IMG/VR virus record: IMGVR_UViG_3300034283_001314
DNA: 64,000 nt
DNA from: a virus
Taxonomy: Duplodnaviria > Heunggongvirae > Uroviricota > Caudoviricetes
Strand: one strand, 5' to 3'
Shown: positions 3,383 through 35,704 of the stretch, piece by piece
Numbering within the stretch: the stretch's first letter is position 1
Layout of the letters: the number at the start of each line of letters is the position of its first letter
Translations under genes and position numbers: made by a program
The notes under the pieces: generated by a model
What the model saw: only the letters and a program-made list of their open reading frames with translations
What the model was told of the DNA's origin: nothing
The model's database searches: none

Positions 3383-3383
3383 A

Positions 3384-13444: not shown

Positions 13445-13903
13445 ATGCCAAGATTTGTAGCACCGAGAGATTATAATTTTTTCCAAAATATCAGTAGAGA
13501 ATTGGTAGATGCAGTTGTGCAAACTCAAGTGTTTGTATTTAAACTTATAGCACAAAATAGTAAAGTTAATTTATATGGAGAATCATTAGATAAATCTTAT
13601 TATGATGGTGTTTCAATATTTGCTATGGTTGAATATAATGATGAAAATGTAGATTATGAAAGTGGTTTAGGACAAGATACAGTTCAAGAAGTAACATTTA
13701 GATTTAACCAAGATACCTGTATTGTAAAAGATATAATGCCTGAAATTGGAGATGTTATACAATTCGTAGATGGCTATTATGAAATTACAAATACAAATGC
13801 ATCTCAATTAGTAGGTGGACAAGCATCAAATAATTTTGGTATAACTTGTAATACTTTCTTAATGAGAAAATCACAATTAAACATAGAACCTAGGAATATA
13901 TAA
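13445..13903 (+). CDS. gp14: Head closure/neck protein (gp14-like)
   Basis: NLYGE and PEIGDVI..YYEI motifs; follows gp13. Confidence 0.7.
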   Translation: MPRFVAPRDYNFFQNISRELVDAVVQTQVFVFKLIAQNSKVNLYGESLDKSYYDGVSIFAMVEYNDENVDYESGLGQDTVQEVTFRFNQDTCIVKDIMPEIGDVIQFVDGYYEITNTNASQLVGGQASNNFGITCNTFLMRKSQLNIEPRNI

Positions 13904-17468: not shown

Positions 17469-17517
17469 ACAATAAAATGATTTCAATAGAAAGATTATAT
17501 TAAGATATTTATAAATA

Positions 17518-17970
17518 ATGGCAAGTTTAATAAGATTAAAACAAATAGAGAGTGGTTCATCGTTGGAATTAGCAGCGGGAGTTGGTGCTGATTTTTCACA
17601 ATCGGTAATTGATATAATACAAGATAATGTAGCAGGAACTTTACCAGAAGGTGTAGTATCATCATCTATACAGGTTAATCTAAATGATGCAAGTGGATAT
17701 GATGCATTTGTAGTTCAATTAGATACTTCAATGAGTAGTGATTTAGAAAGACATGTAGTAAGTGCATCATTAGCACAAACAATTGGAATACTTTCTCAAA
17801 CATATGTAACTACCGGTTCATTCAATTCATATACACAATCAGTATCTCAATCATTTAGTGCAAGTTCAACAACATTTAATCAATTTAGTTCTTCATTAAA
17901 CGATATATACGCAACAGATTACGAAGTTTATATTACTTCTTCTCAAATAATTGATCAAGGGGAATTTTAA
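17518..17970 (+). CDS. Short fibre adaptor (ends IDQGEF)
   Basis: 150 aa; shares ATDYEV..TSS..DxGE[FW] with ORF 20024. Confidence 0.6.
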   Translation: MASLIRLKQIESGSSLELAAGVGADFSQSVIDIIQDNVAGTLPEGVVSSSIQVNLNDASGYDAFVVQLDTSMSSDLERHVVSASLAQTIGILSQTYVTTGSFNSYTQSVSQSFSASSTTFNQFSSSLNDIYATDYEVYITSSQIIDQGEF

Positions 17971-18010
17971 TACTTATATATAATACCTTAATAATAACAT
18001 AGATACATAG

Positions 18011-20008
18011 ATGAGTCAAATATTAAAATTAAAGCGTGGTAGTTTAGAAAGACTATCTACTATAACTGGTTCTTTACAAAAAGGTGAGGTTATATTTGCA
18101 TCAGGTTCATCGAATATCTCAGCAAATAATGGTTCTTCTATTACATTTGTAACCGTTGAAAGTGGTTCTATACAAGCGGTTAATAGAGTAATGAAAGGTG
18201 ATGTTGCACCACAATTAACGGCATCACAATATATTGGTATAATAGATGGTATTCCATTTTATGCAAGTGGTTCAAACTCATTAGTATTATTAAATAGTAG
18301 TGGTAACGAAGTAATAAATTTAGAAGGTAACATTTCTAATTTTAGTGCATCGGTAGCGTTGGCATTTAGTGCAAGTAACGCAAGTATAACAAGTGTAACT
18401 GGAGATTTTAGTAGTAGTGTAGCAACTTCGTTTAGTGCAAGTGCAGCGGCATTAGCAGCATTAAGTGCATCGGTTAGTGGAACAATAAATATATTAAGTA
18501 GTTCAGTAGCAACTTCATTTAGTGCAAGTACGGCAGCATTAGAAGCATTTAGTGCTTCATTGGATGCAACATTTGCAACTGATATAGCAGTATCAGCCGT
18601 AAGCCAAGCAATATCAGCATCGGAATCATATTTAAGTGCATCTATTAGTTCTTCGTTAGCAAGTGGATTTGAAAATTTAAGTTCATCATTTGCAACAACA
18701 ATTACAAATTTAAGTACATCAGTAGATAGTAGATTGGATTTGACCGAAGCTACATCATCTTATTTAAATACAACATTTAGTACTTCGGTAGATAGTAGAT
18801 TAGATGCATTGGAAGAATTTAGTTCTTCATTAGATGATACATTTGCAACAGATATAGCAGTTAGTGTAATTAGTCAATCTATATCAGCATCACAATCATT
18901 TATAAGTTCTTCAATAGCAACATCATTAGCAGCATTATCTCAAAGTAGTGGTTTTATTAATTATGTAACTAATAGTATTGAGCAATTAACAGGAATTGAG
19001 GTTGCGGATTTTGATAATAATACAGCAGTAACATTTACAAATGGAGTTCTTAAATTTATTTTTGGAACACCAACACAACCATCTTCAGTAGCAGCATCTT
19101 TAACTGGATTTGTAACTGATAGATTTAATAAAGTAACCGATAACTATACGGTTAATGGTACTTGGAATAATCAAGGATATACATTAATAAGTGCATCTTT
19201 ATATGAGGGTTCTACATTATTAACGGAAGTTGGTAGTGGAACATCATTATCATATAATACAACAACGAGTGGTTCACATACTTATCAATTACAATATACA
19301 GCAAGTTCACCATTAGATGGAACATTGTATAAAACATCAACTACAACAACTGGTACACTTTCTAAAACTAATCCAGCAGCACCAACAACTGAACGTTCCG
19401 TAGTAGTACAATTAGGTTCAACATCAAATCAAATTGAACAAGGTGCAACTGGTAGTATTACATTCACATCATCATCTGCAAATCCTTCTAATAGTTGGAA
19501 TTTGACAAGTGTGACATCAAATGTACCATCACCTTATTATATAACGGGTTCTGCAACAGGTTCTACTTCTATTAGTATAACTGCAACTGCAAACTATGCA
19601 TCTCCAACGGGTGATAATAGTCCTGATTTAACAACAACATCAACTGCAACTACTACATATACAAAGATTAGAAGTTTAAGACACGGAGCGAGTGCAGCAG
19701 ACTCATTTACTGCAACTGAATTAGAAAACATTGGTGCATGGGATACTACAATAGGTGGAACAATAGGAACGATTGTAAAAGGAACAACAACTGCAAGTGG
19801 ACAAACTCTAACAATTAGTTGGACAGGTGATAAGTATCTTTATATAGTATTTGATTCGGCAAGACCAAATCTAACGGGTATTACGACAAGTGGGTTTGCA
19901 GTATTGGGACAATTTACACTAACAACGGTTGGTCAATATAAAGTTTATAGAACAACTCTTTTGAATGCAGGTGGTGCAGGAAGTAGTATAACATATATTT
20001 TAACATAA
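18011..20008 (+). CDS. Ser/Thr-rich fibre protein with C-terminal Ig-like domains
   Basis: N terminus KLKRGS..LQKGE is paralogous to 20513; SAS coiled-coil repeats; Thr-rich beta C terminus. Confidence 0.7.
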   Translation: MSQILKLKRGSLERLSTITGSLQKGEVIFASGSSNISANNGSSITFVTVESGSIQAVNRVMKGDVAPQLTASQYIGIIDGIPFYASGSNSLVLLNSSGNEVINLEGNISNFSASVALAFSASNASITSVTGDFSSSVATSFSASAAALAALSASVSGTINILSSSVATSFSASTAALEAFSASLDATFATDIAVSAVSQAISASESYLSASISSSLASGFENLSSSFATTITNLSTSVDSRLDLTEATSSYLNTTFSTSVDSRLDALEEFSSSLDDTFATDIAVSVISQSISASQSFISSSIATSLAALSQSSGFINYVTNSIEQLTGIEVADFDNNTAVTFTNGVLKFIFGTPTQPSSVAASLTGFVTDRFNKVTDNYTVNGTWNNQGYTLISASLYEGSTLLTEVGSGTSLSYNTTTSGSHTYQLQYTASSPLDGTLYKTSTTTTGTLSKTNPAAPTTERSVVVQLGSTSNQIEQGATGSITFTSSSANPSNSWNLTSVTSNVPSPYYITGSATGSTSISITATANYASPTGDNSPDLTTTSTATTTYTKIRSLRHGASAADSFTATELENIGAWDTTIGGTIGTIVKGTTTASGQTLTISWTGDKYLYIVFDSARPNLTGITTSGFAVLGQFTLTTVGQYKVYRTTLLNAGGAGSSITYILT

Positions 20009-20023
20009 ATAGAAAGATAAGAA

Positions 20024-20413
20024 ATGGCAATTATATTACCTGGTGGTTTTAACATAACGAATAGTGAGCCTGTTGATGCAAGATTTGCATTAGCTAATCA
20101 ATCGGCCCGTTATGGCTTATCTTTAGCAAATGTATATAAGGGATTAATTGTTTTCCAACAAGATGATTCTACAATGTGGGTATTAACAGATACGGCAAAT
20201 GTAGGAAATCCAAATGGTTGGACACAATTACAAATCGGTGCAGTAACTTCAAACTTACCAGCCGGTGTAATATCATCTTCACAACAAGTTATTGATATAT
20301 TTAACGCAAACTTCACATCAGGTTCTTCAATGGCAACAACGGTAGATACTGAATTTGCAACCGATTATGAGGTGTTTGTAACGTCATCAGTAGCGGATGG
20401 TGGAGAGTGGTAG
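20024..20413 (+). CDS. Short fibre adaptor (ends DGGEW)
   Basis: N-terminal F..PVDAR..YKGLIV..W domain; C-terminal DGGEW. Confidence 0.6.
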   Translation: MAIILPGGFNITNSEPVDARFALANQSARYGLSLANVYKGLIVFQQDDSTMWVLTDTANVGNPNGWTQLQIGAVTSNLPAGVISSSQQVIDIFNANFTSGSSMATTVDTEFATDYEVFVTSSVADGGEW

Positions 20414-20512
20414 AATTAATTCAAAAAAAACAAAAAAATATTCAAAAAACTTTATGATTAATAGTAAATTTTACTATTTATTATCAGTAAAGGAGTAACC
20501 CCAATATAAATT

Positions 20513-23500
20513 ATGGCACAAATCATTAAAAATAGACGTGGTAGTTTAGACAGACTATCTTCAGCAACCGGCTCACTTCAGAAAGGTGAGATATTAATAG
20601 CTACCGGTTCAAGTAAATTAACAGATGTAACTAACGGACAAGGCTTAGTATTTGCAGCAGTAGAGAGTGGTTCAGTAGTAGCTGCAAACAGAGTATTACA
20701 AGGTGCAGTAGCTCCTATATTCTCAGCTTCATCTTATGGTAATTTAATGGATGGTGTTCCTTTCTATGCAAGTAGTAGTAACACATTATTCTTATTAGGT
20801 GCCGATGGTAATACAACTCCTGATTTAACAGGTAACATTAGTACATTTAGTGCATCAGTTGCGACTTCTTTTAGTGCAAGTAATGCAAGTATAGCAAGTG
20901 TAACTGGTGATTTTAGTAGTAGTGTAGCAACTTCATTTAGTGCAAGTGCATTTACGGTTTCTCAATTAAGTGCAAGTGTAGCAAGTGATTTAAATTCATT
21001 AAGTGGTAGTTTGACATCATCTATTGGTGAAACACAAACATCAATCACAAATTTAAGTTCAAGTGTATCTAATATTAGTGGTGCTTTTGCAACATCTACT
21101 TCTGCAAGTAACGCAAGTATTGCAAGTTTAAGTGCAAGTGTAGCAAGTGTGACTGGTGACTTTAGTTCTTCAGTAGCTACTTCATTTAGTGCAAGTGCAG
21201 CATCACAAACTGAATTAAGTTCTTCAGTAGCAAGTACAATTTCAAATTTAAGTTCTTCATTAGCAACAACTGATTCAGCTTCTAAAGCAGAATACACATC
21301 ATTTAGTGCGAGTGCAGCAACACAATTTAATTCTTTCAGTTCTTCACAAGCTGCAGTAAATGCAACTTACGCAACAACTGGTTCAAATACATTCTTTGGA
21401 ACTCAAGTTATTACTGGATCAATGTATATTACAAATGATTTAGTAGTACAAGGTTCTTCTTCACTACAAAATATTACAGCTAGTGCAGTATCAATTGGTA
21501 CAAACACCGTAATTTTAAACACAGCAACTCCAGCAGTTAGATTTGGTGGTGTAAGTGTACAAGATAGTGGTAGTGGAGCTGGTGCAAGTGGTTCATTATG
21601 GTGGGATTCATTAAATAATAGATGGATTTACGAACATCCTAATGCGGGTGGAGAAGGATACAATTCAGCAATATTAATAGCAGGTCCTAAAAACACCGGT
21701 TCGTTAGGTGATGAAGCAACTTTAACCGCTGGAAAAATTATGGTTGCGGTTGGAGAAGATCATATTGGTGATTCTATAATGGAACAAAGTGCATCTACAA
21801 TTATCGTAAGTGGTGATTTAGATGTAAGTGGTGAGATTAGTTCTTCAACAATAGCAGGTATAGGTAATGTAACTTTATATTCTCAATCAGTAGATAGTAG
21901 AGTTGCAACATTAGAAACATCTTTAGGTGGTGGTGGTTCAATAGGAACTAGAGTAGCAAATTTAGAAACTATTTCTTCTTCTTATTTATCTTTCACACAA
22001 TCATATTATAGTGATTCTTCTTCATTTGATACTAGAATTAGTTCATCTAAAGCAGAATACACATCATTTAGTGCAAGTGCAGCAACTTCATTTAGTGCAA
22101 GTGCTTTCACAGCAACGGTAAATTCAGCAAGTGCAGCTTCAGATTTAAACTCTGTAAGTGGTGCATTTGCAACATCAACTTCAGCATCTAAAGCAGAATA
22201 CACATTATTTAGTGCTAGTGCAGCTTCAGAATTAAACTCTGTAAGTGGTGCAGTTGCAACTTCTTTAAGTGCAAGTAAATTTGAATATACTTCATTCTCT
22301 GCAAGTGCTGCTTCTGATTTAAATTCAGTAAGTGGTGCATTTGCTACTTCAATTAGTGCAAGTGATGCAAGAGAATTAGCATTATCTACATCAGTTGATA
22401 GTAGATTAGATACTTTAGAAGCTTCATTAGGTGGTGGTGGTGAAATTGGTACAAGAGTAGCAAATTTAGAAACTATTTCAGCTTCTTATTTAGCATTCAC
22501 ACAATCTTATTATTCAGATTCATCTTCATTTGCAACCGCAATATCGGCTAGTGATGCAGAATATACATCATTTAGTGCAAGTGCAGCAACGGCAATATCA
22601 GCAAGTAACGCATCACAATTAGCATTATCAACATCAGTAGATAGTAGATTAGATGCAGAAGAATTTAAATCTACAACATTTGCAACAACTGGTTCAAATT
22701 CATTCACTGGTTCACAAGGTATATTGGGTGATGTAACCGTAAGTGGCTCAGTATATATTCAATTTGGTCAAGATTTAGTAACAAATCATATATCTGGAAA
22801 CCAAGGTAAAATTGAATTAGGAAATATAGATAATAACGTTAATATCATAGCTGAAAACGAATTAAGATTAACAGCGACTGGTAGTGGTGTTCATATTCAC
22901 AATGCAAATTTCTCAGTATCACCTGATGGTATAAATAATAACGTATTAGTAGTTTCTGCTAGTATAACAACAGTAACTAACGAATTTAGTGCATCTAACA
23001 TAAGTGGTGTAGGAAACATTGGAGCATTTTCTCAATCAGTAGATAGTAGATTTAGTGCAAGTGCATATACCGTTTCACAATTGAGTGCAAGTGTAGCAAG
23101 TGTAACTGGTGACTTTAGTTCTTCAGTAGCAACTTCATTTAGTGCATCTAAAGCTGAATATACTTCATTCTCTGCAAGTGCAGCTTCTGATTTAAATTCA
23201 GTAAGTGGTGCATTCGCAACTTCTACTTCTGCAAGTAATGCAGCAATTACTTCATTATCTGCAAGCGTAGCAAGTGTGACTGGTGACTTTAGTTCTTCAG
23301 TAGCTACTTCATTTAGTGCAAGTGCATTTTCTGTATCAAATTTAAGTGCAAGTATTTACTTAACTGATAGTAATCAAACTGATAGAATTGTAGTTTTAGA
23401 AGCATCTCAATCAGCATTTGATGCAGCGTTTGAATTAACAGGTTCTTCAGTAACAATTTTAGGTGATTTAAGAGTAATAGGTACACAATCAGTTGTTAAT

Positions 23501-24247
23501 TCAACTACAATTGATTTAGGTGATAATATTCTTTCATTAAATGGAACAGCGGGAGCATTTGCTGGATTAATCGTAAAAGATCCAACTGCACCTTCAACAA
23601 TTAGTGGTTCATTATTATGGGATACAACTAATGATTACTGGATAGCGGGTAAGAGTGGTAGTGAAGCAAAAGTATTATTAGCAGTAGGTGATAGTGTAGT
23701 AAGTAGTTCATCACAAATTACTTTAAGTTCTACAACAGGATTTAGTTCATTTGACACTGCAATTTCTACTTCATTCTCTGCAAGTAACGCAAGTATTGCA
23801 AGTTTAAGTGCAAGTGTAGCAAGTGTGACCGGTGACTTTAGTTCTTCAGTAGCAACTTCATTCTCTGCAAGTAATGCATATATATCTTCAGTAAGTGCAA
23901 GTTTAAGTGAAGTAAGTGGAGCATTTGCAACTTCAACAAGTGCTAGTAATTTTACTATCGTTGATAATAGTTCTTCATTTGCAACTTCATTATCTGCATC
24001 AAATGCAAGTATAAGTTCTTTAAGTGCAAGCGTAGCGAGTGTAACTGGTGACTTTAGTTCTTCAGTAGCAACTTCATTTAGTGCAAGTGCAGCAAGTTTG
24101 ACAGCATTAAGTGCTTCAATATACTTAACTGATGCAACTCAAAGTACTGATATTACTAACAATAGTAGTTCATTTGCAACATCAGTAAGTGCAAGTAATT
24201 ATAGAATAACAGTATTAGAAACAACAATAGATGGTGGTTCATTCTAA
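20513..24247 (+). CDS. Long serine-rich repeat fibre protein (1244 aa)
   Basis: N-terminal KNRRGS..LQKGE; multiple SVTGDFSSSVATSFSAS repeats; ends IDGGSF. Confidence 0.75.
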   Translation: MAQIIKNRRGSLDRLSSATGSLQKGEILIATGSSKLTDVTNGQGLVFAAVESGSVVAANRVLQGAVAPIFSASSYGNLMDGVPFYASSSNTLFLLGADGNTTPDLTGNISTFSASVATSFSASNASIASVTGDFSSSVATSFSASAFTVSQLSASVASDLNSLSGSLTSSIGETQTSITNLSSSVSNISGAFATSTSASNASIASLSASVASVTGDFSSSVATSFSASAASQTELSSSVASTISNLSSSLATTDSASKAEYTSFSASAATQFNSFSSSQAAVNATYATTGSNTFFGTQVITGSMYITNDLVVQGSSSLQNITASAVSIGTNTVILNTATPAVRFGGVSVQDSGSGAGASGSLWWDSLNNRWIYEHPNAGGEGYNSAILIAGPKNTGSLGDEATLTAGKIMVAVGEDHIGDSIMEQSASTIIVSGDLDVSGEISSSTIAGIGNVTLYSQSVDSRVATLETSLGGGGSIGTRVANLETISSSYLSFTQSYYSDSSSFDTRISSSKAEYTSFSASAATSFSASAFTATVNSASAASDLNSVSGAFATSTSASKAEYTLFSASAASELNSVSGAVATSLSASKFEYTSFSASAASDLNSVSGAFATSISASDARELALSTSVDSRLDTLEASLGGGGEIGTRVANLETISASYLAFTQSYYSDSSSFATAISASDAEYTSFSASAATAISASNASQLALSTSVDSRLDAEEFKSTTFATTGSNSFTGSQGILGDVTVSGSVYIQFGQDLVTNHISGNQGKIELGNIDNNVNIIAENELRLTATGSGVHIHNANFSVSPDGINNNVLVVSASITTVTNEFSASNISGVGNIGAFSQSVDSRFSASAYTVSQLSASVASVTGDFSSSVATSFSASKAEYTSFSASAASDLNSVSGAFATSTSASNAAITSLSASVASVTGDFSSSVATSFSASAFSVSNLSASIYLTDSNQTDRIVVLEASQSAFDAAFELTGSSVTILGDLRVIGTQSVVNSTTIDLGDNILSLNGTAGAFAGLIVKDPTAPSTISGSLLWDTTNDYWIAGKSGSEAKVLLAVGDSVVSSSSQITLSSTTGFSSFDTAISTSFSASNASIASLSASVASVTGDFSSSVATSFSASNAYISSVSASLSEVSGAFATSTSASNFTIVDNSSSFATSLSASNASISSLSASVASVTGDFSSSVATSFSASAASLTALSASIYLTDATQSTDITNNSSSFATSVSASNYRITVLETTIDGGSF
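20890..24090 (+). repeat. Six dispersed in-frame repeats encoding SVTGDFSSSVATSFSAS
   Basis: Copies near 20900, 21150, 23105, 23280, 23830 and 24045; a seventh copy near 18400 in ORF 18011. Confidence 0.8.
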
Positions 24248-24259
24248 TAAAAAATAATT

Positions 24260-24285
24260 AATCCCCCTGAAATATGGGGGATTTT
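24260..24285 (+). terminator. Rho-independent terminator
   Basis: AATCCCCC/GGGGGATT stem followed by T. Confidence 0.7.
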
Positions 24286-24315
24286 AAAAAGAAAAGTAAA
24301 AGGGAAAACAAATAT

Positions 24316-24921
24316 ATGGCAACAGCAGTAACACAATCAGTACTCTTAAGACGTTCAAATTTAGCGGCAAAAGTACCTACAACCGACCAATTACAACTTG
24401 GTGAATTGGGTGTAAACACCACAGATGGTAGAGTATTTCTTAAAAAAGATAATGCTGGGACAGTAACGATTGAACAACTTGTTGTAACCGGTGCGGAAGT
24501 AACTGGTTCAATTAATATCTTAGGAACAGGTTCGTTTGGACAATTAGAAATCAATGGTGATGCAAACTTTGATGGTAACACATACTTTGCAGGTCCAGTA
24601 AGTGGTGCATTTACAGGTTCATTTAGTGGTGATGGTAGCAACTTAACAGGTGTAACCGCATCAATGAGACCGGATGATTTTGATTTCAACTCTGACCCAT
24701 TTGCAGGAACAATTGGATTTATTCAAGGTAGTGGTTCTCTTTACAAAGTAGCAACTGATGCAGATGCAATTGATTTCAGATACAATGATTTAACTATTGC
24801 AACTATCACAGCAGAAGATGGGTTTAGTGGTAGTGTATATGGTATCGGTGATGTATTATCATTCAGTTCTTCAATTTATACTCAATTTGCAGCAGGTCCT
24901 GATGCAGGTGTTTGGGCATAA
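24316..24921 (+). CDS. Short fibre adaptor (ends DAGVWA)
   Basis: Start moved to MATAVT because ATG24274 lies inside the terminator hairpin; LLRRS..VP..LQLGELGVNTTDG N-terminal domain. Confidence 0.65.
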   Translation: MATAVTQSVLLRRSNLAAKVPTTDQLQLGELGVNTTDGRVFLKKDNAGTVTIEQLVVTGAEVTGSINILGTGSFGQLEINGDANFDGNTYFAGPVSGAFTGSFSGDGSNLTGVTASMRPDDFDFNSDPFAGTIGFIQGSGSLYKVATDADAIDFRYNDLTIATITAEDGFSGSVYGIGDVLSFSSSIYTQFAAGPDAGVWA

Positions 24922-24944
24922 TAAAATTATAAAATAAAATATAT

Positions 24945-24975
24945 AAATTCCCTCACCTTAAAAGTGGGGGATTTT
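24945..24975 (+). terminator. Rho-independent terminator
   Basis: TCCCTCAC/GTGGGGGA stem followed by TTTT. Confidence 0.65.
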
Positions 24976-25018
24976 AATATTTATATTATTTCGTTTTATT
25001 TTAATTTAACATATTTAT

Positions 25019-25040
25019 AAAGGTACTATATAGTACCTTT
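25019..25040. promoter_or_regulatory. Perfect 22-bp palindrome adjoining the late motif
   Basis: AAAGGTACTATATAGTACCTTT directly after ATATTTATA (25011-25019). Confidence 0.45.
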
Positions 25041-25078
25041 TTTCGTTGTTAGATAACACATAAAACGTTTCCATACAT

Positions 25079-27847
25079 ATGGCTCAAAACATTATACTAA
25101 AACGCTCAGCCGTTCCTGGTAGGGTTCCTGATACGGGTTCAATTAACTTAGGTGAAGTAGCAATTAATACCTTTGATGGTAAATTATATTTTAAGAAATC
25201 CGGCTCAGTAGAGTCAGTAGAAACAATAGTAACAACGGATTCAATTACATCTGGTTCATTATTCGTTAGTGATGATATTACAATACAAAGAGATTTATAT
25301 GTAGTTAGAGATGTAATTACAGATGGTGATATCGATGCAAGTGGTTCATTAAGTGGTAGTGGTTTATCAATTAACGATACTTTAAACATTACACACAACA
25401 ATTTTCAATTAAGTGGAAGTGCGGCAATCACCGGTAGTTTAACAGTAATGGGTGCGATTAATGCAACTCAATTCAATATTAACATAATTTCATCATCGGT
25501 TATATTTGAAAGTGGTAGTTCTAAATTTGGTAATACATCCGATGATATACACCAATTCACAGGTTCAGTAAACGTAACTGGTTCATTTTATTTGAATGGG
25601 GCAGATTTAAGTCAAGGAAATAATAGTGGAAGTTTTAGTGGTTCTTTTCAAGGTGATGGTAGTGGATTAAGAGGTGTAGTAAGTGATGATATACCGAGAG
25701 ATGGTTGGGATTATGATTCAAATAGTTCAGCATCTATAAGTGAATTTAACGTAACATCATCTAAATATTTAATAGATTTTCAATGGGAACAAGAAGTAGG
25801 TTCACCGGTTGGTTATAAAGGATTTTTAGCAAATACAACTGGAAGTTCTCAAATTGTTCCTACAACCGAAGGTATTAAGTTTATTGTAGGAAATCAATTA
25901 GTAGCAACGGTTGGTGCAGAAGGTATTAACGCAACTTTACCAAATGGAGTAGTAAGTAGTTCGGCACAATTGACAAGTTCATATGATAGTAGATATGTGT
26001 TAAGTGGTAGTATCACACAAACAACGTGGGATAACATTGAAAATAAACCAAATAACATTATTAGTTCTTCAACGCAAATTTCTAATTTAGGATATGCTGT
26101 AACGGGTTCTAATACGTTTGTAGGAACTCAAACAATGAGTGGTTCAATTATACCTGCAACGGATAATACATACGATTTAGGTAGTGCAACGTATCAATGG
26201 AGAGATATATACGTTTCATCTGGTTCACTTTATATAGATGGAACAAAGGTATTGGGTTCAACTGGAAATGAGTTACAAATTACAACTGATGTAGGACAAT
26301 CAATTAAGATTTTAGAAGCAGGAAGTGATAGTATTATTTTACAATCTGCAGATGGTGATATTCAATTAAAATCATCAGGTGGTGGTAACTTATTATTTGA
26401 TCCAACAACTGGTTTAATTGATGTAAGAGGAACACTACAAATACAAAATGGTAATAAAATAACATCTTCTGATGGCAATGCAATTCAATTTGGTAATAAC
26501 ATTGGTATCACCGGTTCTATTGTATCAACAACAACTCCATTAGTAAGTGGTTCTTCACAAATTGATTTAACACAAACAACTGGATATTCAACATTTAGTT
26601 CATCCGTTAATAGTAGAGTAGTAAATTTTGAAAGTAATAGTGGAACATATGCAACAACTGGTAGCAATACATTTATAGGAACACAAACTATTACAGGTTC
26701 ACTTTTCGTAAGTTCAAATTTAATAGTACAAGGTAGTTCATCTCTACAAAATATTACAGCATCGGCAGTATCAATCGGTACTAACATTGTAAATTTAAAC
26801 ACAGCAACTCCGGCAATTAGATATGCTGGTTTGGTAATAGGTGATAGTGGTTCGGTGGGTGGTTCTGGTTCATTTTTGTATGATTCAGTACAAGATGAAA
26901 TGTTATTTATTCATAGAGGAGATAGTAGTGTTGTAACATCTTCCGTTGCTTTAATGGGTCCTGAAACATATGATAATTTAGGAAACGAAACATATCTTAC
27001 AAATAATAGATTACCAAAAGGAACAGGTAAAGAACATTTAGTTGATTCAAATATTAGTGATGATGGTACTAAAGTAACTATTACAAATGGTTTAGATGTA
27101 ACCGGTGCTTTAAGTGCTTCTACAATTACTGGATTTGGTAATGTAACAACATATAGTTCATCGGTAGAAACATCAATAAGTGCATCTAACTATAATATTA
27201 CAATAAACTCAGCAAGTGTAAGTTCATTAAGTACATCAGTAGATAGTAGATTAAGAAGTGAAGAATTTAAATCAACTACGTTTGCAACAACCGGTTCTAA
27301 TACATTTACTGGAACAATTTCAATTAATAGTGGTACTACGGGATTTTTAACATTAGGAGCAAGTAATTCTTATGGTAGTGTATCTAGTGGAGGTGGAGGA
27401 GCTACAATTTATTTAAATGGTGCAACGAGAGGAGGAACAACCTATGCGGCCTCTAACACATTAGTAGTTGCAACAGACGGTGAGTTTTACATAACAAATG
27501 GTGCAGCTAATTCTACTAAATTTTTATTAGCAAGTAATGGCAACGCCACTATATCTGGTACTTTTACAGAAACTTCTTCATTACGATATAAAGAAAATGT
27601 TGAAACTATTAAATATGGTTTAGATAAAGTTCTTCAAATGAGGGGTGTTACTTATAATAAAAAAGATAATGGTGTTAAAGAAGTCGGTGTGATTGCAGAA
27701 GAAATTTATGAAGTTTTACCTGAAGTAGTTTTAAAAAGTGAAGAAGGTGAAATAGATTCAGTTTCATATAGTAGAATTACCGCAGTTTTAATCGAGGCAA
27801 TAAAAGATTTAAAAAAAGAAATTGAAGATTTAAAAGCAAATAGATAA
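25079..27847 (+). CDS. Tail fibre protein with C-terminal peptidase S74 intramolecular chaperone
   Basis: N-terminal ILKRS.VPG..P..LGEVAIN; C-terminal TSSLRYKENV..GVIAEE..LPEVV..VSYSRI.AVLIEAIK. Confidence 0.85.
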   Translation: MAQNIILKRSAVPGRVPDTGSINLGEVAINTFDGKLYFKKSGSVESVETIVTTDSITSGSLFVSDDITIQRDLYVVRDVITDGDIDASGSLSGSGLSINDTLNITHNNFQLSGSAAITGSLTVMGAINATQFNINIISSSVIFESGSSKFGNTSDDIHQFTGSVNVTGSFYLNGADLSQGNNSGSFSGSFQGDGSGLRGVVSDDIPRDGWDYDSNSSASISEFNVTSSKYLIDFQWEQEVGSPVGYKGFLANTTGSSQIVPTTEGIKFIVGNQLVATVGAEGINATLPNGVVSSSAQLTSSYDSRYVLSGSITQTTWDNIENKPNNIISSSTQISNLGYAVTGSNTFVGTQTMSGSIIPATDNTYDLGSATYQWRDIYVSSGSLYIDGTKVLGSTGNELQITTDVGQSIKILEAGSDSIILQSADGDIQLKSSGGGNLLFDPTTGLIDVRGTLQIQNGNKITSSDGNAIQFGNNIGITGSIVSTTTPLVSGSSQIDLTQTTGYSTFSSSVNSRVVNFESNSGTYATTGSNTFIGTQTITGSLFVSSNLIVQGSSSLQNITASAVSIGTNIVNLNTATPAIRYAGLVIGDSGSVGGSGSFLYDSVQDEMLFIHRGDSSVVTSSVALMGPETYDNLGNETYLTNNRLPKGTGKEHLVDSNISDDGTKVTITNGLDVTGALSASTITGFGNVTTYSSSVETSISASNYNITINSASVSSLSTSVDSRLRSEEFKSTTFATTGSNTFTGTISINSGTTGFLTLGASNSYGSVSSGGGGATIYLNGATRGGTTYAASNTLVVATDGEFYITNGAANSTKFLLASNGNATISGTFTETSSLRYKENVETIKYGLDKVLQMRGVTYNKKDNGVKEVGVIAEEIYEVLPEVVLKSEEGEIDSVSYSRITAVLIEAIKDLKKEIEDLKANR

Positions 27848-28710
27848 TGGCAAATCTTACAAATCTTACTATAAACGATACTGGTCATATAACATTACCA
27901 TCGGGAACAACAACCCAAAGACCGGCATCACCAGCTACAGGATATATTAGATTCAATACTACATTGGGTATTATAGAATATTATAATGGTAGTTATTGGT
28001 TAGACTATACAACTGGTAAAATTTCAGAAAATGCTATTGTAACTTCAAATTTATTACTTCATTTAGATAGTAGTAAACCAACAAGTTATCGAGGTGGTAA
28101 TATATGGTATGATATTAGTTCACAATGTGCACATGGAATATTTGTAAACGGACCAACCCATTCACCAACAGAGAGTTCGGGTGGAGCTGTTTCATTTGAT
28201 GGAACTAACGATTATGTTAGAATTTCTACATTAAATACATTACCAACATCACAAATAACATGTGAGGCATGGATAAAGCCAACAAGAACGGTAAGTACTG
28301 GTACGGTACGAGGTGGAGTAATTTCAGCAACAAACACAATGTATTTGGGTTTATTTAATTCTGCAGATGGTGGTAGTACACACTCACTACATTGGGCAAA
28401 TACCACTAATAGTAGTAGACCATATAGTGCAGATGGTAATATTCCTAATAATGTTTGGTCTCATATTGTAGGTACGTGGGATGGTTCAACAAGTAGAGCT
28501 TATGTAAATGGTAGTCAAGTTTGGTCATCAGCACAAACCGGAACAATTGCCGCAGCAACATATGTAGTTGGAACATATGGTAGTGGATTGACCGATGCTC
28601 TTCATAATTTTCAAGGACAAATTGCAATTGCAAGAATGTATAGTATAGGATTAAGTGGGGCACAAGTTTTACAAAATTATAACGCACAAAAATATAGATT
28701 CGGACTATAA
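27847..28710 (+). CDS. Fibre tip adhesin, LamG/ConA-like lectin domain
   Basis: LPSGTTTQRP..GYIRFN anchor; FDGTNDYV, WSHIVGTWDG, YVNG, VLQNYNAQKYRFGL. Confidence 0.8.
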   Translation: MANLTNLTINDTGHITLPSGTTTQRPASPATGYIRFNTTLGIIEYYNGSYWLDYTTGKISENAIVTSNLLLHLDSSKPTSYRGGNIWYDISSQCAHGIFVNGPTHSPTESSGGAVSFDGTNDYVRISTLNTLPTSQITCEAWIKPTRTVSTGTVRGGVISATNTMYLGLFNSADGGSTHSLHWANTTNSSRPYSADGNIPNNVWSHIVGTWDGSTSRAYVNGSQVWSSAQTGTIAAATYVVGTYGSGLTDALHNFQGQIAIARMYSIGLSGAQVLQNYNAQKYRFGL

Positions 28711-29423: not shown

Positions 29424-29424
29424 T

Positions 29425-31135: not shown

Positions 31136-33940
31136 ATGGCATCATTATTTCAAATTAGGAGAGGAGAATCACTTACCGGTTCATTAGAAAGTGGTGAATT
31201 ATATTATGATATTGAATCTCAATCATTAGCATTAGGTACTGATATTGGTACTAATGTACAATTAGCAAAAATCGGTGGAATTAATAGTGGTAGTTTTAAC
31301 GTAAGTGGAGATATTACATTAGGTGGTACTATTACAATTGGTGATAATACAAATGATAGTGTTATTTTTAATGCAGATTTAAGTTCTTCAATTATACCTG
31401 ATGCAACTAATATATACGATTTGGGTTCTACATCTAAAGTATATAGAAATGTTTATGCAACATCTGGTTCATTTACACAATTAACGGGCACTCTAAGTGG
31501 TTCGATTAATGGTATTGGTAATATAACAACATATAGTACATCCGTAGATAATAGGATAATTATAAATTCTCAAAGTGCATGGGGAGCATTCCAAAGTGCA
31601 TCTTCATATAGTAGTAGTTTTTATACCACAATTAATAATACAACAGAAAGTGTATTAATAAATTCTCAAAGTGCATGGGGAGCATTCCAAAGTGCAAGTG
31701 CATATAGTGCAAGTTTCTATACAACTATAAACACTAATATTGATAATATTGCTTCGAATAGTGCATCAGCATGGGGAGCATTCCAAAGTGCAAGTTCTTA
31801 TAGTAGTTCATTTAGTTCATCCTTAAGTTCAGTAAGTTCTTCTATTAGTGGAACAATAGCAACATTATCACAAAGTGTATCTACTTCATTAAGTTTAGTA
31901 AGTGAATCAATTTATACAAGAGATTATAATCAAGATATAAATATTACCGTAAACTCTGCATCAGCATGGGGAGCATTCCAAAGTGCTTCAGCATATAGTG
32001 CAAGTGCGGTAGCTATATTTGCAACAACTGGTTCAAATACATTTAATGGTTCTCAAATTATAAGTGGTAATGTAGATATTACAGGAACAATTACCGCATT
32101 TGAAATTCATACAATATACCAAAGTTCCTCAGTAATATTCAGTAGTGGTTCTCAAACTTTCGGTGATCAACAAAGTGATAAAGTAAGTATTACAGGTTCA
32201 TTAGAAGTAACTGGTTCAACTAACTTTACAGAATTAAGTGGTAGTTTAGCAACATACTCGCAATCAGTAGATAGTAGGATTAGTGCAAGTAATGCTATAA
32301 CAAATTTATATAGTAGCAGTTTTTATACCACAATTAATAATGCAACTCAAAGTATATTAATAAATTCTCAAAGTGCATGGGGAGCATTCCAAAGTGCATC
32401 TTCGTATAGTGCAAGTTTACAAAGTTCAATATTAATAGTAAGTGAAAGTGCATGGGGAGCATTTCAAAGTGCATCTTCGTATAGTTCTTCGTTTAGTTCA
32501 TCTTTAAGTGCAACTAGTGGAGCATTACAAACTTCAATTTTAAATATAAGTACATCCGTTTCCAATCTAAGTATTGCAGCGGGAGCAAACACTTCAACAA
32601 ATAATACATTTACAGGATATAATACATTTACACAATATATAACTGGTTCTATAAGTGGTGCAGTGGATGGTATAGATGTAAGAGATATATCTTCATCATT
32701 TAATAGTAGAATTAGTATAAGTGTAGCTAATGTAACAGAATTAAGTGCATCTATATATCAAACAGATGCAACACAATCTACTAATATTTCTATAAACTCC
32801 GCAAGTGCATGGGGAGCATTCCAAAGTGCATCTTCGTATAGTAGTTCATTTGCAACATCTATTAGTGAAAGTAATGCAGCAAGAATTGATTTAAGTTCAA
32901 GTATAGCAACAACTGATACAAACCAACAATTACAGATAACTTCTTTAATCACAAATTATGTATCAGCTTCAGTAGTAACATCATTATCAACATCAGTAGA
33001 TAGTAGATTAGATTCATTGGAATTTAACGATACAACATATGCAACAACCGGTTCAAATACATTTAAAGCAAACCAAATTATTAGTGGTTCATTAAATGTA
33101 ACAAATGATATTACAGCAAGTGGAAATTTATTTGTTAGTGGAACTATATACGCAACTGAATTACATACAATCATACAAAGTTCATCTGTAATATTTAGTA
33201 GTGGTTCAAACCAAATTGGAGATCAACAAAGTGATATACTGACTATAACAGGTTCATTAAATCAAACTGGTTCAACTTCGTTTAGTGAGTTAAGTGGTAG
33301 TTTATTTGCATTTAGTGCATCATTAAATAGTAGATTTGGTAATATTGGTACTGATGTAAATACATTAAGTGCATCTATATATCAAACAGATGCAACACAA
33401 TCTACTAATATTTCTATAAACTCCGCAAGTGCATGGGGAGCATTCCAAAGTGCATCTTCGTATAGTGCAAGTGCGGCAACGGTAGCAATTACAAATGCAA
33501 ATTCAGCAGCAGGTGCTTTAGCAAGTGCTTCGGCATACTCTGCAAGTGCAGTAACAACTTATGCTAAATTAGCGGTAGCAAATACATTTACACAAAACCA
33601 AATCATAAGTGGTTCGTTAAATGTAACCGGAGATGTAGTAGCATACTCAACATCGGATGAAAGATTAAAAGATAACATTCAATTAATTTCTAATCCAATC
33701 CACAAAGTACAACAATTAAGAGGTGTCGAATTTGATTGGAATGATAAATCTATATTTAAAGCAGGTAAACATGATTATGGTGTGATAGCTCAAGATGTTG
33801 AAAAAGTATTGCCTGAGTTAGTAAAAGAATCATCTACTGGTTATTTAGGTGTTGATTATGATAAGATTATAGGTTTATTAATTGAAGTTGCAAAAGAACA
33901 AGAAAAACGAATAAAAGATTTAGAAAATAAGATAGTTTAG
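31136..33940 (+). CDS. Ser-rich tail fibre with peptidase S74 chaperone
   Basis: N-terminal QIRRG..LESGEL; SAWGAFQSAS repeats; C-terminal SDERLKDNI..GVIAQDVEKVLPELV. Confidence 0.85.
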   Translation: MASLFQIRRGESLTGSLESGELYYDIESQSLALGTDIGTNVQLAKIGGINSGSFNVSGDITLGGTITIGDNTNDSVIFNADLSSSIIPDATNIYDLGSTSKVYRNVYATSGSFTQLTGTLSGSINGIGNITTYSTSVDNRIIINSQSAWGAFQSASSYSSSFYTTINNTTESVLINSQSAWGAFQSASAYSASFYTTINTNIDNIASNSASAWGAFQSASSYSSSFSSSLSSVSSSISGTIATLSQSVSTSLSLVSESIYTRDYNQDINITVNSASAWGAFQSASAYSASAVAIFATTGSNTFNGSQIISGNVDITGTITAFEIHTIYQSSSVIFSSGSQTFGDQQSDKVSITGSLEVTGSTNFTELSGSLATYSQSVDSRISASNAITNLYSSSFYTTINNATQSILINSQSAWGAFQSASSYSASLQSSILIVSESAWGAFQSASSYSSSFSSSLSATSGALQTSILNISTSVSNLSIAAGANTSTNNTFTGYNTFTQYITGSISGAVDGIDVRDISSSFNSRISISVANVTELSASIYQTDATQSTNISINSASAWGAFQSASSYSSSFATSISESNAARIDLSSSIATTDTNQQLQITSLITNYVSASVVTSLSTSVDSRLDSLEFNDTTYATTGSNTFKANQIISGSLNVTNDITASGNLFVSGTIYATELHTIIQSSSVIFSSGSNQIGDQQSDILTITGSLNQTGSTSFSELSGSLFAFSASLNSRFGNIGTDVNTLSASIYQTDATQSTNISINSASAWGAFQSASSYSASAATVAITNANSAAGALASASAYSASAVTTYAKLAVANTFTQNQIISGSLNVTGDVVAYSTSDERLKDNIQLISNPIHKVQQLRGVEFDWNDKSIFKAGKHDYGVIAQDVEKVLPELVKESSTGYLGVDYDKIIGLLIEVAKEQEKRIKDLENKIV
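31577..33453 (+). repeat. Eight in-frame copies of 23-bp GCATGGGGAGCATTCCAAAGTGC (AWGAFQSA)
   Basis: Starts at 31577, 31673, 31769, 31964, 32375, 32450 (1 mismatch), 32807, 33431. All spacings are multiples of 3. Confidence 0.9.
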
Positions 33941-33997: not shown

Positions 33998-35704
33998 ATG
34001 GGACTTAAATTTAGACGTGGTACGACCGCACAACAATCAGGTTCGTTAGCATTCGGTGAACCATATGTAAACACTACATTGGGAACATTAGTAATTGGTG
34101 GAGCAACAGGTGATATCGTTTTATCATCAACTGGTACAGGAAGTACTGGAACATTCGGAGCTATTTCAGGTTCTGGATTAGATATCACAGGTAACGCAAA
34201 TATTGCGGGTAATTTAACTTTAGGTGGACAATTAACAATCGGTGATAATACATCCGATACAGTTAATGTAGTTGCATCATTAAGTTCATCACTTATTCCA
34301 TCTGTGGATAACGTATTTGATTTGGGTTCTCAAACTAAAATTTGGAGAGACCTTTATATTTCAACTGGTTCAATTAATGTTGTTGCAGCCGGTGCAATAT
34401 TATCATCTATTACAACAAATGCAGATGGTTCTCAAACTTTCCCTAATGGTTTATACTCTCAGGCAAATATAATAATTGGTAGTGGTTCTTATGTTAATAT
34501 AGGTAAATTCGAAATTGGTAGAAGAGGAGATACTCCTGATAATAATACTGTTTTAGGTATTGATGTAATGCCTGATTTAACAACTGGTGAATTTAATACT
34601 GGTATTGGTAGAGGTACATTATATAATTTAACAACCGGTGGTAATAATATTGCAATGGGTGACCAAGCAGGTTATTCAATGGTAAATGGTGTAGGAAATA
34701 TCACAATCGGTAAAAGTGCAGCATTTACTTTAGCAGACCCAGGTGGTGTGAATGGACAACCTGTATCAAATACATTCGTAGGTGATGGTGTAGGAGGTTA
34801 TGTAAATAGTGGATTTTATACAACAGCAATTGGTGGTAATGCATTAAAAGGTAAAAGTGATGAAACGGATAGATTTATTAAAAATACAGCAATTGGATAC
34901 GGTGCAGGTAGTTATCTAACCGGTATCGCAACGAATAACTTATATTTGGGTGCAAATGCAGGACCTTCTTCATATACGAATGAAAGTTATAAATTTTATG
35001 TTTCAAATGGTGAAGTGGGTGATCAACCATTTATGTATGGTGATATGACAAATAGTAGCAGAACATTGGATATCAATGCATCTACAACTATATCTGGTTC
35101 ATTAAGTGTTTCAACCTTAACCGGAATTGGTAATGTAACAACATATTCAACATCAGTAGATAGTAGAATTGTAACCAACTTAAATTCTGCAGCTGGTGCT
35201 TTTGCAAGTGCTTCAGCATATAGTGCAAGTGCAGCAACTTCATTTAGTGCAAGTTTAGCTTCTCAAACAGCATTATCTGCAAGTGCATTTACATCTTATG
35301 CTAAATTAGCAGGAGCAAATACATTTACAGCTAATCAAATCGTAAGTGGTTCTATCACAGCAACTGGTGATGTAGTAGCATATTCAACTTCAGATAAAAG
35401 ACATAAGAACAACATTGTAAATATTACAGATGCATTAGCAAAAGTAACTAAATTAAATGGTGTAACTTGGGAATGGAATGATGATGTTGATACAGCAACT
35501 AAAGAAACACCTAAGACTGGTTTAATTGCACAAGAAGTACAAGAAGTTTTACCAGAAGTGGTGAAAGAAAGAGGAGATGGTTTCTTAGCATTAGATTATT
35601 CTAAAACAATAGGTTTATTGGTAGAAGCAATCAAAGAACAACAAACACAAATACATTCTTTAACTTTAGAAATCGAAAAATTAAAGAAGAATAATAGCTT
35701 ATAA
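33998..35704 (+). CDS. Tail fibre with YadA-head-like Gly repeats and peptidase S74 chaperone
   Basis: N-terminal KFRRG..LAFGEP; NTxIG/NIAMG repeats; SDKRHKNNI..GLIAQEVQEVLPEVV. Confidence 0.85.
   Translation: MGLKFRRGTTAQQSGSLAFGEPYVNTTLGTLVIGGATGDIVLSSTGTGSTGTFGAISGSGLDITGNANIAGNLTLGGQLTIGDNTSDTVNVVASLSSSLIPSVDNVFDLGSQTKIWRDLYISTGSINVVAAGAILSSITTNADGSQTFPNGLYSQANIIIGSGSYVNIGKFEIGRRGDTPDNNTVLGIDVMPDLTTGEFNTGIGRGTLYNLTTGGNNIAMGDQAGYSMVNGVGNITIGKSAAFTLADPGGVNGQPVSNTFVGDGVGGYVNSGFYTTAIGGNALKGKSDETDRFIKNTAIGYGAGSYLTGIATNNLYLGANAGPSSYTNESYKFYVSNGEVGDQPFMYGDMTNSSRTLDINASTTISGSLSVSTLTGIGNVTTYSTSVDSRIVTNLNSAAGAFASASAYSASAATSFSASLASQTALSASAFTSYAKLAGANTFTANQIVSGSITATGDVVAYSTSDKRHKNNIVNITDALAKVTKLNGVTWEWNDDVDTATKETPKTGLIAQEVQEVLPEVVKERGDGFLALDYSKTIGLLVEAIKEQQTQIHSLTLEIEKLKKNNSL

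What the first reader, a model, noticed from the sequence alone, without database searches (positions are those of the whole stretch)
17518..27847. Daisy-chain fibre system: each D-x-G-x-F/W C terminus is followed by a gene with a KR[GS]..GE docking N terminus
Seen: four ORFs end in a related motif (17518 IDQGEF, 20024 DGGEW, 20513 IDGGSF, 24316 DAGVWA). In all four cases the next gene begins with the same kind of N-terminal domain (18011 KLKRGS..LQKGE, 20513 KNRRGS..LQKGE, 24316 LLRRS..LQLGE, 25079 ILKRS..INLGE). The one link without that ending (18011, beta-sandwich end) is followed by a different N-domain (20024 PVDAR). The chain finishes in an S74-chaperone fibre. Inference: these are plug-and-socket pairs, and gene order mirrors assembly of one segmented fibre of about 3,300 aa per chain, possibly longer than the tail set by the 871-aa tape measure. 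Fibres 31136 and 33998 carry the same socket and could be alternative distal segments.
Basis: partly seen in the sequence, partly recalled or inferred. Interest (0 to 1): 0.82.

Follow-up and report, generated by a model that had tools for sequence, protein, structure and literature searches.

The report
Phage fibres chained by T4-type joints
An uncultured T4-related phage encodes its long host-binding fibres as separate protein pieces. These most likely clip together end to end through the joint that phage T4 uses once (gp36 to gp37), used here four times. It is a modular variant of a known design, not a new kind of machine.

Summary
Four ORFs (17518, 20024, 20513, 24316) end in D-x-G-x-F/W, optionally followed by A. 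Each is followed by a gene whose first ~45 residues form one N-terminal domain.

The pairing is not chance and is not peculiar to this phage:
- In 80 related viral contigs, 106 of 106 plug genes precede a socket gene.
- In bacterial genomes fetched by the socket pattern alone, 48 of 55 upstream ORFs end in D-G-G-x-F/Y.

Phage T4 has the same pair. gp36 ends in DFGYY, and the gp37 N-terminus matches my socket profile (E 5.9e-11). The literature states that the gp36 C-terminus binds the gp37 N-terminus.

Relatives build the same fibres from one, two, three, four or five proteins. The head of 20024 and the distal part of 25079 occur fused in a single protein elsewhere.

A complex prediction for 17518 with 18011 gave only weak support (0.58; best control 0.01).

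The window holds two runs, 17518→18011 and 20024→20513→24316→25079. They may be coupled through a second, strictly conserved pair (18011 C-terminal domain, 20024 head). Whether this makes one 3,300-residue fibre or two fibres is about even.

The scan has reported the same joint on other DNA.

Verdict: a new variant of a known kind, of moderate interest.

The parts
17518..17970 (+). 150-aa head/adaptor protein of run A; no socket; ends in the plug IDQGEF
   Evidence: C-terminal profile E 1.9e-16. Homologues in about 35 loci all precede an 18011-type socket gene.
18011..20008 (+). 665-aa protein with an N-terminal socket (residues 1-46) and a shaft. The conserved C-terminal region (about 290-665) is predicted as tandem Ig/FnIII-like sandwiches. 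It has no plug.
   Evidence: E 3.8e-18. The C-terminal region is 55-82% identical across loci. Model pLDDT is 66.5, with weak Ig-like matches.
20024..20413 (+). 129-aa head protein of run B. It has a conserved ~93-residue N-terminal head that is always encoded 1-21 nt after an 18011-type C-terminal domain. It ends in the plug DGGEW.
   Evidence: The head is 74% identical to the N-terminus of a single-protein S74 fibre in L005.
20513..24247 (+). 1244-aa extension link; socket at residues 1-44; ends in the plug IDGGSF
   Evidence: N-terminal E 8.5e-20; C-terminal E 2.7e-9.
24316..24921 (+). 201-aa short connector with a gp37-N-type socket; ends in the plug DAGVWA. It plays the positional role of T4 gp36.
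   Evidence: N-terminal E 1.5e-15. It is 51% identical to the L005 216-aa connector. It is not detectably homologous to gp36. The start at 24316 is preferred.
25079..27847 (+). 922-aa distal fibre with a gp37-N-type socket and a C-terminal S74 intramolecular chaperone
   Evidence: E 1.5e-21; BLASTP to the T4 gp37 N-terminus E 5e-5; PF13884 E 3.7e-13 at 833-885.
31136..33940 (+). 934-aa S74 fibre with a socket but no plug gene upstream. Its socket type does follow plugs in relatives.
33998..35704 (+). 568-aa S74 fibre with an Mtd_N-like socket. This socket type never follows a plug in relatives.
   Evidence: Mtd_N E 6.8e-5, 23.1 bits, below the cutoff of 26.3.
24260..24283 (.). Terminator-like hairpin between the 1244-aa link and the 201-aa connector
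24949..25040 (+). Two terminator-like hairpins and an ATATTTATA promoter-like motif (25011) ahead of 25079

Best explanation
These genes encode multi-protein tail fibres. Each link is presumably a trimer, as in T4, and is joined non-covalently to the next by the type of joint that links T4 gp36 to gp37.

**Proposed mechanism.** The last five residues of one link (D-x-G-x-aromatic, free carboxyl end) dock onto the small N-terminal cap domain of the next link. That domain has the pattern K/R-R/K-G/S ... G-E and resembles the gp37 N-terminus and Mtd_N. Gene order gives assembly order.

**Layout in the window.** There are four such joints in two runs:
- 17518 then 18011;
- 20024, then 20513, then 24316, then 25079, ending in a self-cleaving S74 chaperone.

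Extra links act as length extenders that can be inserted, removed or moved between fibres.

**What is shown:** the motifs, their adjacency, their recurrence in unrelated phages, homology of the socket to the gp37 N-terminus, and variable segmentation of the same fibres.

**What is inferred:** physical docking and its geometry. Whether the two runs are themselves joined through the conserved pair (18011 C-terminal domain, 20024 head) is open, at about 50:50.
For: 1. **Adjacency in relatives.** Across 80 viral loci plus the window, plug-to-socket occurs 106 times and plug-to-non-socket 0 times. Non-plug-to-socket occurs 60 times and non-plug-to-non-socket 827 times. The socket is never internal (0 of 170).
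2. **Independent sample.** 57 loci were fetched from bacterial genomes by the socket pattern alone. They are mostly Alphaproteobacteria, with some Saccharibacteria, Sulfuricurvum, Synechococcus and Haloferula. In 48 of 55, the same-strand upstream ORF ends in D-G-G-x-F/Y. Only 44 of 331 ORFs in those loci end that way.
3. **T4 precedent.**
   - gp36 ends DFGYY, and gp37 residues 7-48 match the socket profile at E 5.9e-11.
   - 118 of 120 gp36 homologues end D-[FY]-G-x-[YF]; the other two appear truncated.
   - The literature states that the gp36 C-terminus binds the gp37 N-terminus (PMC9603124; PMC3004832).
4. **Variable segmentation.**
   - The L005 531-aa protein combines the 20024 head (74% identity) with the 25079 distal part (37%) in one chain.
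   - The run from a 17518-like head to an 18011-like tip has 1 protein in L002, 2 in the window and 5 in L005.
   - The link cassette sits in run A in L005 and in run B in the window.
5. **Partial pairing code among distinct pairs.**
   - D-[QM]-G-E-[FW] goes to the 18011-type socket in 21 of 21.
   - D-G-G-[ST]-[FY] goes to the gp37-type or 31136-type socket in 23 of 23.
6. **Complex prediction.** 17518 residues 91-150 (three copies) were folded with 18011 residues 1-110 (three copies). The verdict was weak support.
   - ipSAE median 0.58 (runs 0.70, 0.39, 0.58); best of 3 controls 0.01.
   - The mark was reached by 58 of 80 solved complexes and 2 of 110 mismatched pairs. At 0.60 or under, only 7 of those 80 solved complexes reached it, and so did both passing mismatches.
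   - Runs agree in at least 87% of contacts; partner pLDDT is at least 65.
   - No solved gp36 or gp37 N-terminal structure was found by sequence, so the pass is unlikely to come from memory of a solved complex.
Against: - No direct binding data exist, and the single complex prediction is only a weak pass.
- The plug is a 5-residue motif. My C-terminal profile does not match gp36 beyond that motif, and the 201-aa connector is not detectably homologous to gp36.
- Sockets also occur without an upstream plug (60 of 166). These include 31136 and 33998 in the window, so the socket can have other partners.
- Loci within the viral family are related, so the counts there are not independent events.
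- A variant ending (I-D-G-G-S-I) in L002 and L025 is followed by a non-socket N-terminus.
- The closest cultured relative by capsid, Flavobacterium phage immuto, has no such system.
Confidence: 0.72

Rival explanations
1. One continuous six-protein fibre. The conserved C-terminal domain of 18011 binds the conserved head of 20024. All six proteins, 3,311 residues per chain before S74 cleavage, then form a single fibre with two joint types.
For: - The pair is obligate. An 18011-type C-terminus is followed by a 20024-type head in 46 of 46 loci, with gaps of 2-21 nt.
- In loci fetched from the head side, every recognised head has that C-terminal domain ending 1-20 nt upstream.
- These two ends are the conserved parts of otherwise very variable proteins. 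The head protein can be as small as 173 aa, too small to be a fibre on its own.
- Run A spans 689-3005 aa and run B 513-2939 aa, but their sum stays at 2825-3628.
- From my own knowledge, by analogy: gp38 and Tfa proteins are encoded just after the fibre whose tip they bind.
Against: - No fusion of the two ends appears among 109 longer homologues.
- The 18011 C-terminal region models as a string of Ig-like sandwiches, typical of terminal adhesion modules (moderate confidence).
- Most 20024-type heads sit on ordinary complete S74 fibres of 440-790 aa.
- Lengths are bimodal (one short, one long), which also fits two separate fibres.
Confidence: 0.45
2. The terminal motif is only a folding or trimer-capping element of its own protein. 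Its adjacency to socket genes reflects conserved synteny in fibre clusters. Each protein is a separate fibre attached directly to the virion through its N-terminal domain.
For: - Sockets occur without plugs (60 of 166).
- N-terminal domains of this kind are generally described as virion- or fibre-attachment domains (PMC12143355).
- Relatedness among the loci inflates the counts.
Against: - Plug-bearing proteins of 75-150 aa (17518, 20024, the L064 75-aa protein) are too short to be fibres.
- Adjacency holds in unrelated prophages of other phyla.
- The same fibre occurs fused or split at these points.
- T4 gp36 and gp37 are known to bind at exactly these ends.
Confidence: 0.12
3. The conserved gene ends are mainly DNA-level recombination linkers that let fibre cassettes be exchanged. 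They have no docking role.
For: Cassettes clearly have moved between fibres at these boundaries. From my own knowledge, conserved boxes that promote exchange are known in T-even fibre genes.
Against: - Conservation is at the protein level, at the exact C-terminus and N-terminus.
- It holds across genomes of very different base composition: about 31% GC in the window and alphaproteobacterial genomes.
- Intergenic spacers between the two motifs vary from 2 to 160 nt.
- This explanation does not exclude docking.
Confidence: 0.08

Closest known systems
Phage T4 long tail fibre, distal half: gp36 C-terminus joined to gp37 N-terminus
   Same: - The upstream protein ends in D-x-G-x-aromatic (DFGYY in T4).
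- The next gene starts with a homologous N-terminal domain (profile E 5.9e-11).
- The genes are collinear with assembly order.
- The distal protein in many T-even relatives also ends in an S74 chaperone (PMC12143355).
   Different: - T4 uses the joint once; the window uses it four times, and relatives up to four times in one run.
- The connector proteins here are not detectably homologous to gp36 (PF03903 not hit).
- No gp34 or gp35 homologue was detected among the fibre proteins.
- Some links carry both a socket and a plug, so they can be inserted serially.
Mtd_N (PF18454), N-terminal domain of the Bordetella phage BPP-1 major tropism determinant; also found in streptococcal prophage HylP fibres
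   Same: It is a small N-terminal domain of trimeric receptor-binding proteins. 33998 matches at E 6.8e-5, and 2 of 12 gp37-type sockets match weakly.
   Different: All scores are below Pfam's cutoff. Most sockets here are not recognised by the Pfam model. No C-terminal partner peptide is described for Mtd in the papers I could search.
Branched receptor-binding-protein complexes of CBA120, G7C and Klebsiella jumbo phages (from my own knowledge)
   Same: Several separately encoded fibre or spike proteins assemble onto one another through N-terminal adaptor domains.
   Different: Those systems dock sideways onto gp10-like branching domains. Here the evidence points to end-to-end joints through the extreme C-terminus.
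Tail-fibre assembly/adhesin proteins encoded just downstream of the fibre gene (T2 gp38, Mu Tfa; from my own knowledge)
   Same: This is a possible analogue of the 18011 C-terminal domain and 20024 head pair. The gene lies immediately downstream, and its conserved N-terminal part is paired with the fibre's conserved C-terminal part.
   Different: No sequence similarity was tested or found. Here the downstream protein can carry a 2,400-residue fibre extension.

Membership tests
T4 gp36-gp37 type fibre joint | Downstream protein begins with a domain homologous to the gp37 N-terminus | tested here: met
   The profile of 170 N-termini hits T4 gp37 residues 7-48 at E 5.9e-11. BLASTP of the 25079 N-terminus against the gp37 N-terminus gives E 5e-5.
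T4 gp36-gp37 type fibre joint | Upstream protein ends in D-x-G-x-aromatic at the free C-terminus | tested here: met
   Four window ORFs end this way. T4 gp36 ends DFGYY. 118 of 120 gp36 homologues end this way.
T4 gp36-gp37 type fibre joint | Upstream protein is a gp36 homologue (Pfam PF03903) | tested here: not met
   Pfam gives no hit for 17518, 20024, 20513 or 24274. BLASTP of the 24316 protein against gp36 gives E 0.17. The C-terminal profile does not hit gp36.
T4 gp36-gp37 type fibre joint | The two ends physically bind | tested here: inconclusive
   Complex prediction for 17518 and 18011 gave weak support: 0.58 against a best control of 0.01 (with the calibration counts given there). This is a prediction, not a binding measurement, and the other three junctions were not tested.
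T4 long tail fibre as a whole (gp34-gp35-gp36-gp37) | gp34-like proximal rod and gp35-like kneecap present | tested here: not met
   None of the nine fibre proteins hits a gp34 or gp35 family in Pfam or PHROGs. Distant homology is not excluded.
Mtd_N (PF18454) | Match to the Pfam model above the gathering score | tested here: inconclusive
   33998 scores 23.1 bits against a cutoff of 26.3 (E 6.8e-5). Of 12 gp37-type sockets, 2 match, with a best E of 0.0017.
Peptidase_S74 intramolecular chaperone fibres (PF13884) | C-terminal S74 domain above the gathering score | tested here: met
   25079 scores 50 bits, 31136 scores 60.9 bits and 33998 scores 65.2 bits, against a cutoff of 22.

The most novel reading that the evidence does not exclude
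The plug and socket form a portable docking code with at least two specificity classes: endings in G-E-F/W pair with the 18011-type socket, and endings in G-G-S/T-F/Y pair with the gp37-type and 31136-type sockets.

With such a code, phages could:
- insert or move length-extender links between fibres;
- attach alternative distal segments to one stalk. For example, 31136 could compete with 24316 for the IDGGSF end of 20513, giving mixed or branched fibres.

Together with a third joint (18011 C-terminal domain to 20024 head), the window's six proteins would form one fibre of roughly 180 nm, longer than the tail.
Probability: 0.3. Interest if true: 0.75.

Novelty: new variant of a known kind. Interest (0 to 1): 0.55.

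Why it matters
- **A testable prediction for T4.** If the joint works as inferred, a five-residue C-terminal tag and a ~45-residue N-terminal cap specify which fibre pieces connect. No solved structure of the gp36-gp37 junction turned up in the PDB copy by sequence.
- **Better annotation.** The rule lets one read fibre architecture (number of links, order, rough length) directly from metagenomic sequence. Many small "hypothetical" proteins next to fibre genes can be annotated as connectors.
- **A simple evolutionary route.** Fibre length and tip could be changed by moving whole links.

None of this changes the known principle that multi-protein fibres assemble collinearly with gene order.

Tried and rejected
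- **Public phage records.** A DNA search of 17000-28000 and a protein search of 20513 found nothing. No whole genome is held for this window.
- **Family searches.** PHROGs and Pfam give no family for 17518, 18011, 20024 or 20513 beyond sub-threshold noise.
- **Nearest cultured relatives.** Flavobacterium phage immuto has no plug or socket. Microcystis phage Mel-JY01 lacks the fibre cluster between its neck genes and the sheath gene.
- **Solved structures by sequence.**
  - Nothing was found for the sockets or for a roseobacter socket protein.
  - Nothing was found for T4 gp36. For the first 200 residues of gp37 the only hit was a shared repeat in a gp34-like chain.
- **ESM Atlas look-alikes.** For the 18011 C-terminal region and for 20024 these gave only unnamed viral clusters.
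- **Fold searches.**
  - The 18011 C-terminal model (pLDDT 66.5) gave only generic Ig/FnIII matches at low TM.
  - The 20024 model (pLDDT 60.7) gave Z of at most 4.8, which is within the range of common arrangements.
  - Neither result decides between one fibre and two.
- **Fusion search.** I looked for a protein fusing the 18011 tip with the 20024 head and found none in 109 homologues.
- **Single-sequence search with the 20024 head.** This returned only the contigs already held.
- **Literature.** Searches for the motif string and for a described gp36-gp37 interface found no paper on the terminal peptide.
- **Rejected reading.** I considered that the ORF start at 24274 is real. I rejected it because that ATG lies in a hairpin stem and relatives start later.
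Full report
**Context**

The window is from an uncultured myovirus with about 31% GC.
- It has a T4-type major capsid protein (8388-10040) and a sheath (38797-41052).
- By capsid, the closest cultured relatives are Microcystis phage Mel-JY01 (52%), Flavobacterium phage immuto (50%) and Rhodothermus phage RM378 (39%).
- The fibre cluster lies between neck-type genes and the sheath gene. 13903 weakly matches T4 gp15.
- Neither the region's DNA nor the 20513 protein matches deposited phage records.

**Observation**

Translations confirm the four endings: IDQGEF, DGGEW, IDGGSF and DAGVWA.
- The pattern D.G.[FWY] occurs at 5.4e-4 per residue in the window's proteins, so four of 61 ORFs ending with it is far above chance.
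- I built a profile from the six N-termini and refined it on relatives. It recognises 18011, 20513, 24316, 25079, 31136 and 33998 at residues 1-46 (E 1e-11 to 1e-21) and nothing else in the window.
- All four plug genes are followed by a socket gene.
- The last 47 residues of the two small plug proteins, 17518 and 20024, are 38% identical.
- The ATG at 24274 lies inside a terminator-like hairpin, so 24316 is the better start.

**Relatives**

A search with 18011 brought 80 viral contigs from environmental metagenomes.
- Across them and the window, 106 plug genes with a close downstream neighbour are all followed by a socket gene. Only 60 of 887 non-plug genes are.
- The socket is never internal (0 of 170 hits).
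- These contigs are related, so the counts are not independent events. The architectures do differ, though.

**Independent sample**

I fetched loci from bacterial genomes using only the socket pattern.
- The 57 loci come mostly from Alphaproteobacteria, with some from Saccharibacteria, Sulfuricurvum, Synechococcus, Haloferula and others.
- In 48 of 55 usable loci, the same-strand ORF ending just upstream terminates in D-G-G-x-F/Y.
- In those loci only 44 of 331 ORFs end that way.
- The pairing is therefore a general feature of tailed phages and prophages, not a quirk of this lineage.

**The known prototype**

In T4, gp36 ends in DFGYY. The next gene, gp37, begins with a domain that my socket profile hits at residues 7-48 with E 5.9e-11. 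BLASTP of the 25079 N-terminus against gp37 gives E 5e-5.
- Of 120 gp36 homologues, 118 end in D-[FY]-G-x-[YF]. This includes the most distant ones, which end in forms close to those in the window.
- The literature states that trimeric gp36 binds the N-terminal region of gp37 (PMC3004832). More specifically, the C-terminal end of gp36 binds the N-terminal end of gp37 (PMC9603124).
- The connector proteins here are not detectably gp36 homologues, so what is shared is the joint, not the whole protein.
- I found no paper describing the terminal peptide itself.
- I found no solved structure of gp36 or of the gp37 N-terminus by sequence.

**Segmentation varies while the ends stay**

- The head of 20024 (residues 1-93) is 74% identical to the N-terminus of a 531-aa protein in L005. 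The rest of that protein aligns with residues 530-919 of 25079, including the S74 domain. The first and last pieces of the window's four-protein run thus occur as one polypeptide.
- The run from a 17518-like head to an 18011-like C-terminal domain is one protein in L002 (869 aa), two in the window (815 aa) and five in L005 (3,005 aa).
- Homologues of 20513, 24316 and the N-terminal part of 25079 sit in run A in L005 and in run B in the window. Whole links have moved between fibres at these joints.
- Among distinct plug/socket pairs there is a partial code:
  - endings D-[QM]-G-E-[FW] go only with the 18011-type socket (21 of 21);
  - D-G-G-[ST]-[FY] goes with the gp37-type or 31136-type socket (23 of 23);
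  - the 33998-type socket never follows a plug (0 of 6);
  - the 18011-type socket always does (37 of 37).

**Structure prediction**

The single complex job folded 17518 residues 91-150 (three copies) with 18011 residues 1-110 (three copies), using my own alignments. It returned weak support.
- The ipSAE median was 0.58 (runs 0.70, 0.39, 0.58), and the best of three controls was 0.01.
- The mark was reached by 58 of 80 solved complexes and 2 of 110 mismatched pairs. At 0.60 or under, only 7 of those 80 solved complexes reached it, and so did both passing mismatches.
- The runs agree in at least 87% of contacts, and partner pLDDT is at least 65.
- This moves my odds up slightly and no more.

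**One fibre or two**

18011 has no plug and 20024 has no socket, so the T4-type joints give two runs. But these two ends form a second pair that is even more strictly conserved.
- Every 18011-type C-terminal domain is followed within 2-21 nt by a 20024-type head (46 of 46).
- In loci fetched from the head side, every recognised head has that domain ending 1-20 nt upstream.
- These ends are the conserved parts of otherwise variable proteins. The head protein can be as small as 173 aa.
- Run lengths are strongly complementary: A spans 689-3005 aa and B 513-2939 aa, with a sum of 2825-3628.

All of this fits a joint. The evidence against is as follows.
- The lengths are bimodal, which also fits one long and one short fibre.
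- No fusion of the two ends exists among 109 homologues.
- The 18011 C-terminal region models as tandem Ig-like sandwiches.
- Most heads of this type sit on ordinary complete S74 fibres.
- The 20024 head model has only weak matches (Z at most 4.8) to trimerisation and N-proximal tailspike domains and to the Mtd N-terminus.

I rate one continuous fibre and two fibres as about equally likely.

**Length**

This part is inference.
- T4's long fibre is about 145 nm (PMC9603124) for 2,536 residues per chain (lengths), or about 0.057 nm per residue.
- A single chain of about 3,200 residues would then be about 180 nm.
- At about 0.15 nm per tape-measure residue (my own knowledge), 871 residues give about 130 nm.
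- The 871-aa ORF matched no tape-measure family. It is assigned by position only.

**Earlier notes of this scan**

Earlier notes of this scan report the same kind of joint on other DNA and name the same T4 precedent (e1-5645176, e1-5467559, e1-5467582, among others). I reached the T4 link before reading them and tested it myself. They are not independent evidence.

**Verdict**

- The plug-and-socket reading is well supported by comparison but unproven biochemically.
- The single 3,300-residue fibre is open.
- The system is a reiterated, modular variant of the T4 gp36/gp37 joint.

Noticed in passing
window 17505, 25011, 31109, 33954, 38748 and 16 other sites: ATATTTATA occurs 21 times against 6.35 expected (no shuffle reaches 21). 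Eighteen copies are on the + strand, mostly 10-70 nt upstream of structural genes. It is a candidate late-promoter motif.
   Followed up: partly
window 19000-20413; loci L046-L080, L111-L186: The C-terminal domain of 18011-type proteins is always followed within 1-21 nt by a gene with the 20024-type head. This holds across more than 100 contigs, including distant ones where the head protein is only 173-196 aa. It may be a second joint type or a Tfa/gp38-like tip protein.
   Followed up: partly
L187-L243 (bacterial genomes): Many alphaproteobacterial prophage-like loci carry the same joint: an ORF ending in DGGTF followed by a gp37-N-type socket gene. Several genomes hold three or four such junctions (for example Pseudogemmobacter and Aestuariivirga).
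   Followed up: partly
L002 18758-20999; L025 14506-17562: A 214-aa socket protein ending in I-D-G-G-S-I is followed by a fibre with a different N-terminus (starts M-I-I-H-S-P). This may be another socket type for the same kind of plug.
   Followed up: no
window 27847-31086: Three consecutive paralogous genes share an N-terminus. Two carry Laminin_G_3 domains (E 7e-22 and 1e-12). Similar LamG genes flank the fibre runs in relatives.
   Followed up: partly
window 36733-38418: A 561-aa protein has a sub-threshold PT-HINT match (E 3.8e-5) followed by a LamG-like domain, in line with another note of this scan.
   Followed up: no
window 13903-14982: This ORF weakly matches the T4 gp15 tail sheath stabiliser (PF16724, 23.9 bits, cutoff 25). 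The fibre cluster therefore follows neck and tail-completion genes, which leaves open a neck rather than baseplate attachment.
   Followed up: no
window 24260-24283, 24949-24971, 25019-25040: Terminator-like hairpins follow the 1244-aa link and the 201-aa connector. This suggests the links are expressed in separate transcription units.
   Followed up: no
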